Below, piece by piece: positions 1 through 48,650 of a DNA stretch of 64,000 nucleotides (its first letter is position 1; each line of letters begins with the position of its first letter). The DNA is from Cryptosporangium sp. NPDC048952 (GTDB lineage: Bacteria; Actinomycetota; Actinomycetes; Mycobacteriales; Cryptosporangiaceae): contig NZ_JBICTY010000010.1 in the NCBI RefSeq assembly GCF_043197895.1, positions 829 to 64,828 of the forward strand, in the 5' to 3' direction. A program made the translations under genes and the position numbers. The notes under the pieces were generated by a model. That model was not told where the DNA came from. It saw only the letters and a program-made list of their open reading frames with translations, and made no database searches.

Positions 1-125
1 CGCGGGCACGGCGCGCGGAGCCGGCACGCGGGCACGGCGCGCGGAGCCGGCACGCGGGCACGGCGCGCGGAGCCGGCACGCGGGCACGGCGCGCGGAGCC
101 GGCACGCGGGCACGGCGCGCGCAGC
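1..125. repeat. Tandem direct repeat, 26-bp unit cgggcacggcgcgcggagccggcacg, about 4.5 copies, truncated by the window edge
   Basis: Unit start recurs at about 3, 29, 55, 81, 107. No unique spacers between units, so not CRISPR-like. Confidence 0.8.
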
Positions 126-133
126 ACGCCACG

Positions 134-181
134 GGTGCAGCCCCCCGCGCGCAGCACGGCGCGCGGGGGGGCTGCACCCGT
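134..181. repeat. Near-perfect 20-bp inverted repeat (gggtgcagccccccgcgcgc / gcgcgcgggggggctgcaccc) giving a strong hairpin
   Basis: Reverse-complement arms read directly; short loop agcacg. Confidence 0.8.
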
Positions 182-194
182 AGCGCACCTCGGA

Positions 195-1541
195 ATGGCT
201 CGCGGACGCGGACTCGGGCCCGATGTTCGGGGTGTACGCCACGAGGCGGCACGGATGCCGCACCGGACATACGGGGACACTGACATGGACGTCGAACTTC
301 CGGCCCGCTGGGCCGACGAGCCTTCGCGGCTCGCCGCAGTACGGATGATGCGCGAGTTCAGCACGTCGGTCGAACCGGTGCTGGCGAACATCGTCCGGAT
401 CGCCGCAGAGGCAGTGCGGGCACCGATGGCCATGCTCACGCTGGTCGAGGCCGAGCGCGTCCGCGCGGTCGTCCGCCACAACATCGGCGTCACGCAGCTG
501 CCACGCGCTGCGTCGCCCTGTGCCCGCGTCGTCGGCGACCGGGCCCCGCTGCAGATCCCGGACCTGCTCGAGGACCCCCGTTACGCGGTGGGACCTCTCA
601 CCGCCGTCGACCCGGGCGCCCGCTCCTACGCCGGCGTCCCGCTGCTCGACACCACCGGCAACGTCGTCGGTGCGCTCTCCGTGCTCGACCGCAAGCCGGG
701 CGCGCTCGGCCCGGAGCGCGCCCAGCTCCTCGGCCTCCTCGCCGACCAGGCGACAGCGATCCTGACGCTCGGCGCCGCCGTCGAGCAGTCGGCGACCGAG
801 GCCGCCGCCCTGGGCCGTTTCGGCAGCGACTTCATCTCGCTCATCACCCACGAGGTGCGGACGCCGGTCGCGGTCATCACCGGCAACCTCGAGCTCCTCG
901 ACGAGCTCGACGACGTGCCCGACCAGTACCGCGAGCGCATGGTCAGCGCGATCCGCCGCAACGCCGACCGCCTCGTCCGGCTGATCGACCACCTCCTGGT
1001 CACCGCCCGGGCGGGCGACGCCCTCAAGGCGACCGTGCACCGCTCACCGCTCGACTTGTCCGGCCTGGTCACCGACGCCGTCCGCGCGGCAGAGGCGAAG
1101 GCCAAGCAGGCCGGCGTCGCCCTCGACCTGCACATCGAGCAGCCGCTGCGCGTACCGGGCGACAGCACGATGCTGCGCACCGCTATCGACAACCTGCTGT
1201 CCAACGCCCTGCTCTTCACCCAGGCGGGTGGCCGCATCTCGGTGCGGGTCTCCCAGGGCTCCACCGACCTGCGCGACGCGACCGAGATCACGATCACCGA
1301 CACCGGCGTCGGCATCCCGGCCGACGAGCAGCCGCTGGTGTTCGAGCGTTTCTACCGCGGGGCGCACGCCCAGCGGACCGAGGCGCCCGGCGCCGGGCTC
1401 GGCCTCGCGGTGACCGAGGCGATCGCCGCCGCGCACGGCGGGCTGGTGCGGCTGGAGAGCACTCCCGGCGTCGGGACGACGGTGCGGCTGATGCTTCCCC
1501 TGGGCGCGACGCGCCCGGCGCTGGAGCTGGTCCGCAACTGA
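195..1541 (+). CDS. Sensor histidine kinase with N-terminal GAF domain (GAF-HisKA-HATPase_c); start uncertain (in-frame ATG candidates at 195 and 285, among others)
   Basis: H-box FISLITHEVRTPVAVITGNLELL; ATP-lid motifs TDTGVGIP and GAGLGLAV; GAF-like region upstream. Confidence 0.8.
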   Translation: MARGRGLGPDVRGVRHEAARMPHRTYGDTDMDVELPARWADEPSRLAAVRMMREFSTSVEPVLANIVRIAAEAVRAPMAMLTLVEAERVRAVVRHNIGVTQLPRAASPCARVVGDRAPLQIPDLLEDPRYAVGPLTAVDPGARSYAGVPLLDTTGNVVGALSVLDRKPGALGPERAQLLGLLADQATAILTLGAAVEQSATEAAALGRFGSDFISLITHEVRTPVAVITGNLELLDELDDVPDQYRERMVSAIRRNADRLVRLIDHLLVTARAGDALKATVHRSPLDLSGLVTDAVRAAEAKAKQAGVALDLHIEQPLRVPGDSTMLRTAIDNLLSNALLFTQAGGRISVRVSQGSTDLRDATEITITDTGVGIPADEQPLVFERFYRGAHAQRTEAPGAGLGLAVTEAIAAAHGGLVRLESTPGVGTTVRLMLPLGATRPALELVRN

Positions 1542-1587
1542 AAGCTCCCCGGTTCCGGTCCGCCATGCACCGGAGCCGGGTGATTCT

Positions 1588-1692
1588 TCCCGCCTGCCCG
1601 CCCCTCTGGGGAGGGATGGCAGGCGGGAGTACGTCTCGCTGCGCGCGACTCGCCACCCCCTCTGGGGAGGGATGGCGAGTCGCGCGGGCGTG
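1588..1692 (+). other. Two consecutive stem-loops sharing the inner core ccccctctggggagggatgg but with different, individually complementary outer stems (cccgcctgcc/ggcaggcggg and cgcgcgactcgcc/ggcgagtcgcgcg)
   Basis: Read directly; about 45 nt downstream of the kinase stop. Could be a tandem terminator or a structured RNA or repeat element. Confidence 0.6.
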
Positions 1693-1950
1693 CGCATTTA
1701 CGGCACTCCGCCCACGGACTGATACTCGAACCTTCATCTACTCTGGGTAGACATATCCAGACGCCCCGTAATACCCGCTGGTCCTCAGGCTGTGCCCCCA
1801 GAGGGACGGTCCGCGTATCCGTCCCGATTACAGAGATTCGCTGGTACGGGCCCGTCGGATTAGGCACGCTGAACGCGGGGCCGCGGAAAGCCCACCGCCA
1901 GCAATCAGCACGAACGACGGGGTGCCGGCCGTCGCAGGAGGGGAAGCGCC

Positions 1951-2874
1951 GTGACGGTTTTCGACACGAGTAGATCGACAGCACCCACTGCGTCGCTGCG
2001 CCCCAGAGAGCAGGTCCAGCGTCGGGTCACCGGCACCCCCCGCTGGGCCCCGGCAGCTGCCGGCATCGTGGTCGGGGTGTCCCGCGGCGACGACCCCACC
2101 GGCGTCCTCACCTGGGCGGCCCGAGAAGCCCGTGCCCTGCACGCCCCGCTCGTGGTGGCCCACGCCGGCAACGACGAGCGCGCCGACGCCGTCCTCGCCG
2201 AGGCCGGTGCGCTGGCCCGCCGGGCGGTTCCGGCCGGGCACGTCCGCACCGTCCGCGGTGACGGCCGTCCGCTCACGGTCCTCGCGGCCGCGGCCGACCA
2301 GGCAGGCATCGTGGTGGTCGGCACCGCCGCGGGCGCCGGTTCCGGCACCCAGCTCGTCGGCACGATCGCGGTGCGGCTGGCCACCGAGGGCCGGTCCGCC
2401 GCCGTCGTCGCCCGGCCTCCGGCCGGCGGTGCTCAGCCGCAGCAGGGCCCCTTCCCCGGTCACGTCGTCGTCGGTGTCGACGGCTCACCCGCGTCCCGCG
2501 CGGCGCTGGAGTACGCGTTCGCGCACGCGGCCGCCCACCGCCGTCCGCTGGTGGCGGTCTTCGTGACGACGGGTTCGGCCGCCGACTACTGGATCGACGA
2601 CAGCCTGCTCGACACCGCGGTCACCGACGACCCGGCCGCGAACGCGCTGGTCGACGAGGAAGTGAGCGCGTTCGCCGATCGTTACCGGGTACGCGCGACC
2701 ACCGCGGTGCACCGGGGCCGTCCGCTGGCGGTGCTGGCGAGGCTGTCCCGGGGAGCAGACCTGCTGGTCGTCGGCGTCAACGGGCGCCCGGCGGGAGCGC
2801 GCTCGCGGCTCGGCTCCACCGCCCGGGGAGTGCTGCTCGACCCGCCGACGACGGTGGCCGCGGTCCGCGCCTGA
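1951..2874 (+). CDS. Universal stress protein, tandem USP domains
   Basis: Two USP-like halves (VVGVSRGDD...LVVAHAG and VVVGVDGSPASRAAL...LLVVGVNGRPAGARSRLGSTARGVL); GTG start preceded by aggagg. Confidence 0.75.
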   Translation: MTVFDTSRSTAPTASLRPREQVQRRVTGTPRWAPAAAGIVVGVSRGDDPTGVLTWAAREARALHAPLVVAHAGNDERADAVLAEAGALARRAVPAGHVRTVRGDGRPLTVLAAAADQAGIVVVGTAAGAGSGTQLVGTIAVRLATEGRSAAVVARPPAGGAQPQQGPFPGHVVVGVDGSPASRAALEYAFAHAAAHRRPLVAVFVTTGSAADYWIDDSLLDTAVTDDPAANALVDEEVSAFADRYRVRATTAVHRGRPLAVLARLSRGADLLVVGVNGRPAGARSRLGSTARGVLLDPPTTVAAVRA

Positions 2875-2942: not shown

Positions 2943-5159
2943 ATGCTCTGTCTAGGCTTCCTAGCCGAACCGCCCCCCGAAGCCCGGAGCACCGCGTTGA
3001 CCGACCGTCCGACCGTCCTCACCACCGAGATCGCCGCCGAGCAGCGTCACGTCGACGATGTGTACGCCCGGCTGGAGGAGGTGCGATCCGGCGCCACCGA
3101 GGTCGAGGCCGAAGGTCACCGACGGGCCCAGCTGGGCACCGAGGGTTCGCTGTACGAGAGAGACGTGCTGGTCCACCAGGCCGCGCGGCGGCGGGCGGCG
3201 CTCGACAGCGGGTACGACGGCCTGGTGTTCGGCCGCCTCGACCTGCGCACCGGTGAGGCCCGGCACATCGGCCGGCTCGGTGTGCTCGACGAGCGTTACG
3301 AGCCGCTCGTCGTCGACTGGCGTGCCCCGGCCGCCGCGCCGTTCTACCGCGCCACCGCCGAGGACCCGCTCGACGTCATCCGGCGTCGGGTGATCCACTC
3401 CTCCGGCACCCGCGTGATCGGGCTGTCCGACGACCTGCTCGACCCGGCTGCCGCTCCGGAGGGCATGGCCGTGGTCGGCGAGGGCGCGCTGATGGCGACG
3501 CTGGCCCGCGCCCGCGGCAAGGCCATGCGCGACATCGTCTCGACGATCCAGCGCGAGCAGGACGAGGCGATCCGCGCGCCCGCGAGCGGCACCACGATCA
3601 TCGAGGGCGGGCCGGGCACCGGGAAGACTGCCGTGGCGCTGCACCGCGTCGCCTACCTGCTGTACTCCGACCGCAACCGGTACGCCGGGGGCGGTGTGCT
3701 GGTCGTGGGGCCCTCGCCGACGTTCGTCCGGTACATCGACCAGGTCCTGCCCTCGCTCGGCGAGGAGGGGGTCGTGCTGCGGTCGCTCGCGACGATGCTC
3801 TCCAGCGTCAAGGCCACCCGTCGCGACAATGCCGCGCTCTCCGCGGTGAAGGGTGCGGCGAGCATCCGCCGGGTCCTGTCCCGGCTCGCCTGGCTGCCGG
3901 CGCCTACGGCACCGGACCGGTTCCGCGTCGTCTACGCCGGTGAAGTGCTTTCGTTGGACGTCCGGCAGCTGGCCGCCGCGCGCAAGGCGGCCCGGCGGCG
4001 AGGCAACACCCCGAACTCGGCCCGCGGTCAGGCGGCCACCGCGCTGCTCGACGCGCTCTGGAACGTCTCCCGGGGCTGGACCGGTGCTCCGGAGAACTGG
4101 GAGCGGGACGCGTTCGACGCCACGATCCGCGACCGCGACGAGTTCCGCGACTTCCTCGCGGCCTGGTGGCCGATCGTCGAGCCCGAGCACGTGCTGCGCT
4201 GGGCTGCCGACCGCGCGCGGCTGGCCCGCTGCGCCGGGCCCGACCTCCACCGCGACGACGTCGCACCGCTCGCGGCGTCGTGGAACCGGGACGGCTGGTC
4301 GGTGGCGGACGTGGCGCTGCTCGACGAACTGCGTGCGCTGCTCGGCAAGCCGCCGAAGCCGCAGGTCCGGCGTCGTCGTCCGGAGGAGTGGGAGATGCAG
4401 GAGATCCGGCTCTCCTCCGACCGTGCTCCGGCTCCGACACCCGCCTCGGACGAGGACGACGACGAGTTCTCGCTGATCGTCGTCGACGAGGCCCAGGACC
4501 TCTCGCCGATGCAGTGGCGGATGCTCGGCCGCCGCGGCAAGTACGCGTCCTGGACGCTGGTCGGCGACCCGGCCCAGAGCGCCTGGGAGGATCCGGACGA
4601 GGCCACCGCGGCCATGGACGCGGCCGTGGGCACCCGGGTGCGGCGCCGTTATCTGCTCACCACCAACTACCGGAACTCGGCGGAGATCTTCGAGCTGGCG
4701 GCGTCCGTGCTGCGCCGGTGGGAGCCCGGGCTCGAGCTGCCGACCGCGGTCCGCAGGACCGGCGCGAAGCCGGAGGATCGGCTGGTGTCCCCCGACCGGC
4801 TGGCCGACGAGCTGCGGGCGTGCGTCGAAGAGCTCTTGGCCGACGTCGAGGGCACGGTCGGGGTGGTCACCCCGGCGGACCGGCAGGACGAGGTCGCCGC
4901 GCAGTTGAACGGTCTGGGCACCGGCCGGCTCCAAATCGTGGACAGCATCGAGGCCAAGGGCTTGGAGTACGACGGTGTCGTGGTGATGGAACCGGCGGAG
5001 ATCATCGCCGAGTCCAGCGCGGGTCACCGGGTGCTGTACGTGTCGCTCAGCCGGGCGACGCACCGCCTGATCGTCGTCTCCACCGAACGCGACTGGTCGG
5101 TTCCGCCGGCCGACCGGACGGCACCGGACCGCGCCGCGGAGCCACTCTCCCTGTTCTGA
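2943..5159 (+). CDS. helD: HelD/UvrD-family DNA helicase
   Basis: Walker A GGPGTGKTAVAL; Walker B VVDEAQDL; LTTNYRNS and VSLSRATHRL helicase motifs. The 700-aa minus-strand ORF 2961..5063 is the Arg-rich antisense frame. Confidence 0.75.
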   Translation: MLCLGFLAEPPPEARSTALTDRPTVLTTEIAAEQRHVDDVYARLEEVRSGATEVEAEGHRRAQLGTEGSLYERDVLVHQAARRRAALDSGYDGLVFGRLDLRTGEARHIGRLGVLDERYEPLVVDWRAPAAAPFYRATAEDPLDVIRRRVIHSSGTRVIGLSDDLLDPAAAPEGMAVVGEGALMATLARARGKAMRDIVSTIQREQDEAIRAPASGTTIIEGGPGTGKTAVALHRVAYLLYSDRNRYAGGGVLVVGPSPTFVRYIDQVLPSLGEEGVVLRSLATMLSSVKATRRDNAALSAVKGAASIRRVLSRLAWLPAPTAPDRFRVVYAGEVLSLDVRQLAAARKAARRRGNTPNSARGQAATALLDALWNVSRGWTGAPENWERDAFDATIRDRDEFRDFLAAWWPIVEPEHVLRWAADRARLARCAGPDLHRDDVAPLAASWNRDGWSVADVALLDELRALLGKPPKPQVRRRRPEEWEMQEIRLSSDRAPAPTPASDEDDDEFSLIVVDEAQDLSPMQWRMLGRRGKYASWTLVGDPAQSAWEDPDEATAAMDAAVGTRVRRRYLLTTNYRNSAEIFELAASVLRRWEPGLELPTAVRRTGAKPEDRLVSPDRLADELRACVEELLADVEGTVGVVTPADRQDEVAAQLNGLGTGRLQIVDSIEAKGLEYDGVVVMEPAEIIAESSAGHRVLYVSLSRATHRLIVVSTERDWSVPPADRTAPDRAAEPLSLF

Positions 5160-48607: not shown

Positions 48608-48650
48608 GACGCCGGGTGACCGCCCCCCGTGGTGACGGTCGCCCGGCGTC
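48608..48650 (-). terminator. GC-rich hairpin (about 14-bp stem) just downstream of the lipoprotein gene
   Basis: gacgccgggtgaccg ... cggtcgcccggcgtc arms. Confidence 0.5.

What the first reader, a model, noticed from the sequence alone, without database searches (positions are those of the whole stretch)
1588..1692. Two back-to-back hairpins with identical core and covarying outer stems
Both elements contain ccccctctggggagggatgg (itself a small palindrome ccctc/gaggg) flanked by 10-13-bp stems that differ in sequence but are each perfectly self-complementary. Compensatory variation with a conserved core is the signature of a selected RNA/DNA structure rather than chance.
Basis: seen in the sequence. 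Interest (0 to 1): 0.55.

Follow-up and report, generated by a model that had tools for sequence, protein, structure and literature searches.

The report
Conserved-tip RNA hairpins after kinase gene
Two very stable hairpins between a sensor-kinase gene and a stress-protein gene share a 19-base tip that is unchanged across the genus Cryptosporangium while their stems changed in matched pairs, so they are a real, undescribed, single-locus RNA element whose function is unknown.

Summary
H1 (1588-1628) and H2 (1642-1686) are perfect 11- and 13-bp hairpins. Both carry the same apical module, GCC-NNN-CCCTC-TGGG-GAGGG-AT-GGC.

The window comes from Cryptosporangium sp. NPDC048952. The hairpins lie 46 nt after the stop codon of an orphan GAF histidine kinase and about 260 nt upstream of a usp gene followed by a helD-like gene, all on the + strand.

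This is not a dispersed repeat. Exact-motif scans of 185,579 species genomes and of JGI metagenomes found hairpin-flanked copies only at the orthologous Cryptosporangium locus.

Eleven orthologous loci hold 15 intact copies:
- 11 of 14 outer-stem pairs show double compensatory changes.
- The inner stem, the loop and 19 core bases are invariant, whereas only 14-20% of silent kinase sites are invariant over ten of these loci (the eleventh lacks the kinase).
- Every locus keeps at least one intact copy, and extra copies decay.
- G·U pairs favour the + strand RNA.

There is no Rfam match, and neither a canonical U-tract nor a promoter was found.

Best reading: a clade-specific cis-acting RNA hairpin. 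The stem would give stability or termination, and the invariant tip would be a docking site for an unknown factor. The function is inferred, not shown.

The parts
285..1541 (+). Orphan GAF-HisKA-HATPase sensor histidine kinase gene. The hairpins lie in its 3' flank.
   Evidence: Pfam GAF, HisKA and HATPase_c. 100% identical to the 418-aa Cryptosporangium sp. NPDC048952 protein P0001.
1546..1583 (+). H0: a hairpin 5 nt after the kinase stop codon. Its arms are conserved in sequence across Cryptosporangium, its loop varies, and it has one U·G pair that is valid only on the + strand.
   Evidence: Fold. Orthologue alignment A1. Absent from the L012/L013/L048 clade.
1588..1628 (+). H1: outer stem 1588-1598/1618-1628 (11 bp), internal loop CGC(1599-1601)/AT(1616-1617), inner stem CCCTC(1602-1606)/GAGGG(1611-1615), loop TGGG(1607-1610).
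   Evidence: Model score 66.2 bits. Orthologues with compensated stem changes.
1642..1686 (+). H2: outer stem 1642-1654/1674-1686 (13 bp), internal loop ACC(1655-1657)/AT(1672-1673), inner stem CCCTC(1658-1662)/GAGGG(1667-1671), loop TGGG(1663-1666).
   Evidence: Model score 66.2 bits. One stem pair runs through the series A-U (window), G·U (L011, L014), G-C (japonicum, arvum).
1700..1950 (+). Context: a strongly conserved non-coding leader that ends in the invariant ribosome-binding site of usp (GCAGGAGGGGAAG..GTG). It is separable from the hairpins, because distant relatives keep its core without them.
   Evidence: Alignments A1 and A3. L049 and L050. No Rfam match.
1951..2874 (+). Universal stress protein (Usp) gene, followed by a HelD/HelR-like gene at 2943-5159.
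   Evidence: Pfam Usp. NCBIfam HelR/HelD models hit but score below their cut-offs. The gene order is conserved in all orthologous loci.

Best explanation
H1 and H2 are cis-acting RNA stem-loops on the + strand transcript that leaves the histidine-kinase gene. Each has two functionally distinct parts.

1. A long outer stem of arbitrary sequence. Only its pairing is selected. It gives a very stable helix (about -30 to -57 kcal/mol) that would stop or insulate transcription, or block exonucleases at the kinase-usp boundary. This is the U-tract-less, I-shaped hairpin type common in high-GC actinobacteria.

2. An invariant apical module: three G-C pairs, a bulged or mismatched junction (C bulge, G·U, C·A), the 5-bp CCCUC/GAGGG helix and a UGGG loop. 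Its sequence is read specifically by a trans-acting partner, most likely a protein. One intact copy per genome is enough.

Shown here: the structure, the selection on pairing, the selection on the tip sequence, the single-locus distribution and the + strand bias.
Inferred: that the region is transcribed, that the stem terminates or protects the transcript, and that a factor binds the tip.
For: - Position and strand. The hairpins start 46 nt after the kinase stop codon. Both flanking genes are on the + strand.
- Pairing is selected. In 15 copies, 11 of 14 outer-stem pairs show double changes. 91.3% of cells are paired against 42-61% in slid registers, and 0 of 500 shuffles reach the observed score.
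- The strand is +. There are six G·U pairs and one peripheral A·C in the stems. One pair runs through the A-U, G·U, G-C series in H2, and H0 and the arvum H1 each have a U·G.
- The tip sequence is selected. 19 core columns are invariant, whereas only 20% of kinase third-codon positions and 14% of four-fold sites are invariant over ten of these loci (the eleventh, L048, lacks the kinase).
- Internal control. The hairpin upstream of the kinase gene (window 127-185) changes both stem and loop between the same species.
- One copy is needed. All 11 loci keep at least one intact core, and second copies decay in L014-H1, L009-H1, L012-H2 and L004-H2. L012 keeps H1 and L013 keeps the H2 position.
- L048 has lost the kinase coding region and its neighbouring spacer was rearranged, yet it keeps H1 intact.
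- The conserved module is asymmetric: a 3x2 internal loop, an invariant C opposite an invariant A, and a non-palindromic TGGG centre. H1-H2 spacing varies between 52 and 58 nt. Both features fit a single-stranded hairpin better than a dyad-symmetric DNA operator.
Against: - No transcript data exist. Neither 3' ends nor transcription start sites are known.
- There is no U-tract after H1 or H2 in the window, and the terminator scan found nothing. Efficient intrinsic termination is therefore doubtful.
- No partner protein or RNA has been identified.
- The G·U versus A·C bias rests on about five independent events.
- In the apical junction each strand can form one wobble and has one mismatch, so the tip itself does not reveal the strand.
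- More distant relatives (L049, L050) have the kinase, leader and usp arrangement without this module, so it is not essential to the locus.
Confidence: 0.45

Rival explanations
1. The hairpins are the 5' domain of the usp-helD leader, or an intercistronic element of a kinase-usp operon. They would control usp expression, for example as a protective 5' structure after processing or as a regulated attenuator, rather than serving the kinase mRNA.
For: - In L048 the kinase coding region is deleted, leaving a 19-codon remnant, yet H1, the leader and usp persist.
- No sigma-70-like promoter was detected between H2 and usp in four loci.
- The leader is strongly conserved and predicted to fold back on the usp ribosome-binding site.
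- The tip contains a ribosome-binding-site-like GGAGG and a complementary CCCCUC that could match the usp site GGAGGGG.
Against: - L049 and L050 keep the leader core without any such hairpin.
- The promoter scan is nearly blind at 70% GC: about 0 hits are expected even in shuffles.
- The L048 deletion may be recent, since L048 is about 92% identical to L012.
- Hairpins this stable cannot plausibly open to pair with sequences 260-330 nt away.
- The match between the tip and the usp site is at chance level (4 hits against 5.5 expected).
Confidence: 0.2
2. These are plain tandem factor-independent terminators or 3'-end stabilisers. The shared tip has no separate function and persists through common descent, gene conversion between H1 and H2, or a folding-nucleation role.
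For: - Their position after a stop codon.
- Three hairpins in a row.
- In some orthologues the last hairpin is followed by a short T run, such as L011 GTTTTCCC and japonicum CTTTCCC.
- Similar strong hairpins lie behind other genes, at 127-185 and 48608-48650.
Against: - The tip is far more conserved than silent sites, and more conserved than the kinase protein-coding positions.
- Conversion within a genome cannot explain identity across genomes whose kinases are only 64-89% identical.
- The control terminator-like hairpin in the same genomes keeps neither stem nor loop.
- At least one intact copy is retained in all 11 loci, with reciprocal decay of the other.
Confidence: 0.12
3. The core is a double-stranded DNA operator (CCCTC-N4-GAGGG, a 5-4-5 inverted repeat) for a dimeric regulator of usp or the kinase, perhaps the unknown partner response regulator. 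The surrounding palindrome would be an unrelated terminator.
For: - The core contains a 5-4-5 inverted repeat. From general knowledge, this layout is typical of NarL/DosR-type response-regulator sites.
- It lies 280-350 bp upstream of usp, and there are two copies in some species.
Against: - The conserved block is not dyad-symmetric: the centre is TGGG, an invariant C faces an invariant A, and the spacers to the conserved GCC/GGC are N3 on one side and N2 on the other.
- Outer-stem covariation and G·U tolerance are not expected for a DNA site.
- Copy spacing varies between 52 and 58 bp.
- There are no further sites in 64 kb, nor elsewhere in the two Cryptosporangium representative genomes in which the exact 19-mer was found, C. 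japonicum and sp. NPDC051539.
Confidence: 0.1
4. The hairpins are endoribonuclease (RNase III-type) processing signals that separate kinase and usp messages, like the phage T7 intercistronic hairpins with a lower stem, an asymmetric internal loop and an upper stem.
For: The architecture is a lower stem of 10-19 bp, a 3x2 internal loop, a 5-bp upper stem and a tetraloop, giving 17-26 bp in total. The site is intercistronic between genes on the same strand.
Against: - H1 in most species is only about 17-18 bp long, which is short for RNase III (established knowledge, not tested here).
- Nothing here tests cleavage.
- RNase III sites rarely need an invariant 19-nt sequence.
Confidence: 0.08
5. 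The functional strand is the minus strand. It would give a small RNA whose hairpins display C-rich tips (AUCCCUCCCCA) that bind G-rich ribosome-binding sites, in the manner of 6C RNA.
For: - The minus-strand tip is C-rich and contains CCUCC.
- There is a weak 6C hit on the minus strand (20.4 bits).
- Minus-strand folds are as stable as + strand folds for the perfect stems.
Against: - The 6C score is far below the gathering score of 47 and has E = 2.4.
- Six G·U pairs on the + strand become A·C mismatches on the minus strand. L011-H2 and L013 fold 8.4 and 1.3 kcal/mol worse on that strand.
- Most of the C's are paired rather than in a loop.
- No gene or promoter is evident on that strand.
Confidence: 0.05

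Closest known systems
U-tract-less (I-shaped) terminator or 3'-end hairpins of high-GC actinobacteria
   Same: A GC-rich perfect hairpin, or several, just downstream of a stop codon on the coding strand. Only stem pairing is constrained, and no run of U follows.
   Different: Ordinary examples do not conserve their loop. The control hairpin at 127-185 does not. Here a 19-nt tip is invariant across a genus and is retained in at least one copy per genome.
Guanidine-II riboswitch (mini-ykkC): two tandem hairpins with identical conserved tetraloops and covarying stems
   Same: The formal architecture: back-to-back hairpins, conserved identical tips and freely covarying stems.
   Different: - The loops are UGGG, not ACGR.
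- The conserved part is much larger, about 25 nt.
- The stems are far longer.
- The downstream ribosome-binding site is about 260 nt away.
- 7 of 11 loci have a single intact copy.
- There is no Rfam hit.
ANTAR antiterminator targets (dual hexaloop hairpins next to a terminator, partnered with sensor kinases such as the GAF-PAS kinase PdtaS)
   Same: Tandem hairpins with conserved loops that would be read by a protein, in a two-component-system context, close to terminator-like structures.
   Different: - The loop is 4 nt. If the closing pair opens it becomes CUGGGG, which lacks the defining A1.
- One copy suffices.
- No ANTAR gene was seen nearby.
- The kinase has HisKA (PF00512), not the PdtaS-type domain.
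Phage T7-type RNase III intercistronic processing hairpins, and intercistronic stabiliser hairpins
   Same: A lower stem, an asymmetric internal loop and an upper stem, placed between genes on the same strand.
   Different: The upper stem is only 5 bp, the sequence is invariant rather than only the shape, and cleavage is untested.
Dispersed palindromic repeats (REP/BIME, mycobacterial TRIT terminator motif)
   Same: Conserved palindromic sequence in intergenic regions behind genes.
   Different: Those occur in tens to hundreds of copies per genome. This motif occurs at one locus only.

Membership tests
Canonical intrinsic (hairpin + U-tract) terminator | GC-rich hairpin downstream of a stop codon on the coding strand | tested here: met
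   H0, H1 and H2 start 5-100 nt after the kinase stop codon. The folded region gives -111.6 kcal/mol, z = -5.75.
Canonical intrinsic (hairpin + U-tract) terminator | Run of U immediately after the stem | tested here: not met
   The scan found 0 terminator-like sites in the window and in three orthologues. H1 is followed by gtacgtc and H2 by ggcgtgc. Only L011 (GTTTT) and japonicum (CTTT) have short T runs.
I-shaped (U-less) actinobacterial terminator / 3'-end hairpin | mRNA 3' ends map at the base of the hairpin | not testable with these tools
   No Term-seq or RNA-seq data are available for Cryptosporangium.
Dispersed palindromic repeat family (REP, TRIT, MITE-like) | Many copies per genome at unrelated loci | tested here: not met
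   The exact 19-mer gave 8 loci in 185,579 species genomes, and only the 2 Cryptosporangium loci are flanked by inverted repeats. The metagenome scan gave 32 loci, of which 1 is orthologous. The covariance model found no further copy in the 64-kb window.
6C RNA (Rfam RF01066) | Covariance-model score at or above the gathering score of 47 bits | tested here: not met
   20.4 bits, E = 2.4, on the minus strand, covering H2 plus its flank only.
Guanidine-II riboswitch (mini-ykkC) | Two hairpins, each capped by an ACGR tetraloop | tested here: not met
   The loop is UGGG in all 15 copies. No Rfam hit even at E up to 10. 7 of 11 loci have one intact copy.
ANTAR-binding dual hairpin | Two hairpins with hexaloops that have A at position 1 and G at position 4 | tested here: not met
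   The loop is a tetraloop. The alternative 6-nt reading CUGGGG has C at position 1. There is no Rfam hit.
[quoted passage not shown] | 19-bp palindrome found upstream of rifamycin-resistance genes across Actinobacteria | tested here: not met
   The papers describe the RAE as widespread in Actinobacteria. This 19-mer occurs only in Cryptosporangium among 185,579 species genomes, and it lies upstream of usp, not directly upstream of the helD-like gene.
[quoted passage not shown] | Match to the RAE consensus sequence | not testable with these tools
   The consensus appears only in figures, and the original paper is not held.
CRISPR mini-array | Direct repeats separated by unrelated spacers, with cas genes or a leader nearby | tested here: not met
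   There are only two copies. The supposed spacer ends pair with sequence outside the repeats to form hairpin stems. The arrangement is orthologously conserved. No cas-like genes are among the neighbours.
RNase III processing hairpin | Helix of about 20 bp or more with an internal loop that is cleaved by RNase III | not testable with these tools
   The helix is 17-26 bp including the non-canonical junction. Cleavage cannot be tested.

The most novel reading that the evidence does not exclude
The invariant tip is the recognition site of an as yet unknown, clade-specific RNA-binding regulator. By binding the hairpin tip, this regulator would decide whether transcription or mRNA survival continues from the GAF sensor-kinase gene into the usp-helD stress operon. 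That would be a new protein-dependent attenuation or antitermination module in a phylum where RNA-binding regulators are poorly known.
Probability: 0.15. Interest if true: 0.6.

Novelty: new member of a known kind. Interest (0 to 1): 0.4.

Why it matters
Actinobacteria lack Hfq, ProQ and CsrA, and few sequence-specific RNA-protein regulatory pairs are known in the phylum. A hairpin whose stem evolves freely while a 19-nt tip stays frozen is a clean bait for finding such a partner, because stem swaps and tip swaps separate the two functions.

It also bears on how U-tract-less hairpins behind actinobacterial genes work. Its reach is limited, however: one locus in one genus, next to a kinase and a stress protein of unknown role.

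Tried and rejected
- **Genome-wide repeat family.** Rejected: exact-motif scans of species genomes and metagenomes, and a covariance-model scan of the window, found only the orthologous locus.
- **Known RNA family.** Rejected: no Rfam hit at gathering thresholds in 64 kb. Only noise appeared at E up to 10, including 6C on the minus strand at 20 bits and Pseudomonas sRNA P35 at 21 bits.
- **Small ORF starting at the tip's ATG (GGAGGgATGg).** Rejected: the ATG is ACG in three species, the reading frame differs between the window and japonicum, and the spacing between ribosome-binding site and start would be 1 nt.
- **G-quadruplex.** Rejected: the conserved part has only three usable G runs, and the fourth would lie in the variable stem.
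- **Long-range pairing of the tip (GGGAYGG) with the invariant leader block CCGUCCC, or of CCCCUCU with the usp ribosome-binding site.** Neither can be tested by covariation, because both partners are invariant. Both are thermodynamically implausible against hairpins of about -30 to -57 kcal/mol. The operator-like pattern count is at chance.
- **RAE link through the downstream helD-like gene.** The consensus sequence was not retrievable, and the distribution argues against it.
- **Promoter and terminator consensus scans.** Uninformative at 70% GC.
- **Literature search for the motif string.** One irrelevant hit.
- **Fetching two named orthologues by their kinase proteins.** No encoding contig could be retrieved for the C. 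phraense kinase (P0009) or the C. arvum kinase (P0003). The C. arvum locus was later fetched through its Usp protein; C. phraense was never examined.

Full report
**What is there.**
The window has 70% GC. It comes from Cryptosporangium sp. NPDC048952: the kinase and Usp proteins are 100% identical to NCBI proteins of that strain.

An orphan cytoplasmic histidine kinase with GAF, HisKA and HATPase domains ends at 1541 (285-1541). A universal stress protein gene starts at 1951, and a HelD/HelR-like gene follows at 2943-5159. All three are on the + strand.

The 409-nt spacer begins with three hairpins:
- H0, 1546-1583.
- H1, 1588-1628: 11 perfect outer base pairs.
- H2, 1642-1686: 13 perfect outer base pairs.

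H1 and H2 share the apical module GCC-NNN-CCCTC-TGGG-GAGGG-AT-GGC, of which 20 nt are identical in a row.

**More than chance.**
- The 19-mer, allowing up to 3 mismatches, occurs twice in 64 kb against 0.04 expected.
- The region folds with z = -5.75 on the + strand and -6.89 on the minus strand.
- A covariance model built from the copies scores only H1 and H2 (66 bits each) in the whole window with filters off. The next hit scores 25 bits and is an ordinary hairpin between convergent genes, without the core.

**Not a repeat family.**
- An exact scan of one genome from each of 185,579 species found the 19-mer in 8 loci. Only the C. japonicum locus (two copies, 57 nt apart) and the Cryptosporangium sp. 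NPDC051539 locus are flanked by inverted repeats. The other six hits are bare chance matches.
- A scan of JGI metagenomes with AYGG allowed gave 32 loci, of which one is orthologous.
- There is no Rfam family at gathering thresholds in 64 kb, and nothing significant at E up to 10.

**Orthologues.**
I fetched the same kinase-spacer-usp locus through the kinase and Usp proteins. The sources were C. arvum, C. japonicum, C. minutisporangium, C. aurantiacum, strain NPDC051539 and five metagenome or SRA contigs. Kinase identity ranges from 89% down to 64%.

The model finds 15 + strand copies in 11 loci. Four loci have two intact copies and seven have one.

**Selection on pairing.**
On the 15-copy alignment:
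- The outer helix has 14 pairs, and 11 of them carry changes on both sides.
- 91.3% of cells are paired, against 42-61% when the partner is slid by 1-3 columns.
- 0 of 500 shuffles reach the observed covariation score (the 12-copy version is).

Among strict orthologues the paths are visible. The fourth pair of H1 is U-A in the window and L011, G-C in arvum, japonicum, L012 and L048, and the U/C intermediate in NPDC051539. One H2 pair is A-U in the window, G·U in L011 and L014, and G-C in japonicum and arvum.

**Selection on the tip.**
The inner helix CCCTC/GAGGG, the TGGG loop, the C before it, the A after it and the three closing G-C pairs never change.

The only variable tip position (AT or AC) always faces a purine that it can pair with: G·U, A-U or G-C.

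Over ten of these loci (L048 lacks the kinase gene) only 20% of kinase third-codon positions are invariant, 14% of four-fold sites, and 56-66% of first and second positions. The tip is therefore more constrained than the protein.

As an internal control, the hairpin between the upstream gene and the kinase (window 127-185) changes both stem and loop between the same species.

Redundant copies decay:
- L014-H1 is ccctttgaagaggga.
- L009-H1 is decayed.
- L012-H2 is interrupted.
- L004-H2 has become cccctc-gac-gagggg.

Every locus nevertheless keeps one intact copy. L012 keeps the H1 position and L013 the H2 position.

In L048 the kinase coding region is deleted down to a 19-codon remnant, and the spacer after H1 is replaced, but H1 itself is untouched.

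**Strand and molecule.**
Non-Watson-Crick stem cells are six G·U and one peripheral A·C when read on the + strand. H0 and the arvum H1 add further U·G pairs. On the minus strand these would be A·C mismatches: L011-H2 loses 8.4 kcal/mol there.

This points to + strand RNA, the strand of both flanking genes, but it rests on only about five independent events.

The conserved block is not dyad-symmetric, and H1-H2 spacing varies between 52 and 58 nt. Both points argue against a dimeric DNA operator.

**Limits of the element.**
Two more distant loci, L049 and L050 (Usp identity 68% and 66%), keep the core of the downstream leader and the usp ribosome-binding site but have no such module. L049 also retains the kinase gene; the L050 contig does not reach that far upstream. 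L050 has an unrelated GC hairpin instead. The module is therefore a Cryptosporangium-clade addition, separable from the leader.

**Mechanism.**
Shown here: a hairpin whose pairing and whose tip sequence are under separate purifying selection, needed in one copy, at one locus.

Inferred: the outer stem acts as a U-less terminator, insulator or exonuclease block for the transcript leaving the kinase gene, and the distorted, sequence-invariant tip is a docking site for a specific partner.

I give this 0.45. The rivals are:
- a 5' or intercistronic domain controlling usp (0.2);
- plain terminators whose tip is functionless (0.12);
- a DNA operator (0.1);
- an RNase III-type processing signal (0.08);
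- a minus-strand small RNA with C-rich tips (0.05).

No U-tract and no consensus promoter were found, but those scans are almost blind at this GC content.

**Comparison with known systems.**
The element resembles I-shaped actinobacterial terminator hairpins in place and stem. It resembles the guanidine-II riboswitch and ANTAR targets in the formal pattern of tandem hairpins with identical tips and free stems. It fails the defining features of each: the ACGR loops, the A1/G4 hexaloops and the Rfam scores.

It also fails the defining features of 6C RNA, of REP or TRIT-type repeats, of CRISPR arrays and, by distribution, of the rifamycin-associated element that precedes helR genes.

It is best filed as a new, narrowly distributed member of the broad class of conserved cis-acting RNA stem-loops. 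Interest is moderate. The evolutionary evidence is unusually clean and gives a ready experimental handle, but the element is confined to one locus in one genus and its function is unknown.

Noticed in passing
window 1700-1950 (L047 2250-2500, L013 4390-4600, L049 2330-2500, L050 150-320): A non-coding leader of about 250 nt upstream of usp has long invariant blocks: ATCCGTCCCGAT, GGCACGCTGA and GCCGTCGCAGGAGGGGAAG, followed by the GTG start. Its core persists in distant relatives that lack the hairpins. There is no Rfam match. RNAalifold pairs its 5' part (CUACUCY..) with the usp ribosome-binding site, but with little covariation. It may be an undescribed regulatory leader for the usp-helD operon.
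   Followed up: partly
window 1546-1583: H0, a third hairpin 5 nt after the kinase stop codon. Its arms (CCCCGGYTCCGGT/ACCGGAGCCGGG) are conserved in sequence in all Cryptosporangium species, but its loop varies. It is absent from the L012/L013/L048 clade.
   Followed up: partly
L009 1855-2184 (C. minutisporangium): The 3' half of H2 plus the downstream sequence is tandemly amplified as a 57-nt unit, with 2.7 copies after an assembly gap of Ns. The repeat boundary lies inside the core loop (CTCTGGGGAG). This suggests replication slippage at the hairpin.
   Followed up: partly
L048 1971-2271 compared with L012 2861-4385: In a metagenome relative that is about 92% identical to L012, the histidine-kinase coding region is cleanly deleted in frame, leaving a 19-codon remnant. 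About 1.1 kb of unrelated DNA is inserted upstream. H1, the leader, usp and helD remain.
   Followed up: yes
window 1-133: A tandem repeat of a 26-nt unit (CGCGGGCACGGCGCGCGGAGCCGGCA, 5.1 copies, 97% matches) runs off the window start. It is followed at 127-185 by a hairpin of about 26 bp, between the upstream 163-aa gene and the kinase gene.
   Followed up: partly
window 2943-5159: The HelD/HelR-like RNA-polymerase recycling ATPase gene is conserved downstream of usp in all orthologous loci. It scores well below the NCBIfam HelR and HelD cut-offs (431 against 1100 bits), so it is a divergent family member. Whether a rifamycin-associated element precedes it was not checked.
   Followed up: no
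window 1929-1942: The usp ribosome-binding region CCGTCGCAGGAGGG matches the tip pattern CCCTCNNNNGAGGG with one mismatch. Statistically this is at chance level (4 hits against 5.5 expected), but both are invariant GGAGG-containing elements of the same spacer.
   Followed up: partly
window 1795-1822: Only the window, japonicum and arvum have a local hairpin GGGACGG...CCGTCCC inside the leader. Its 5' arm resembles the 3' part of the tip (GGGAYGG). In other species the invariant CCGTCCC block has no obvious local partner.
   Followed up: no
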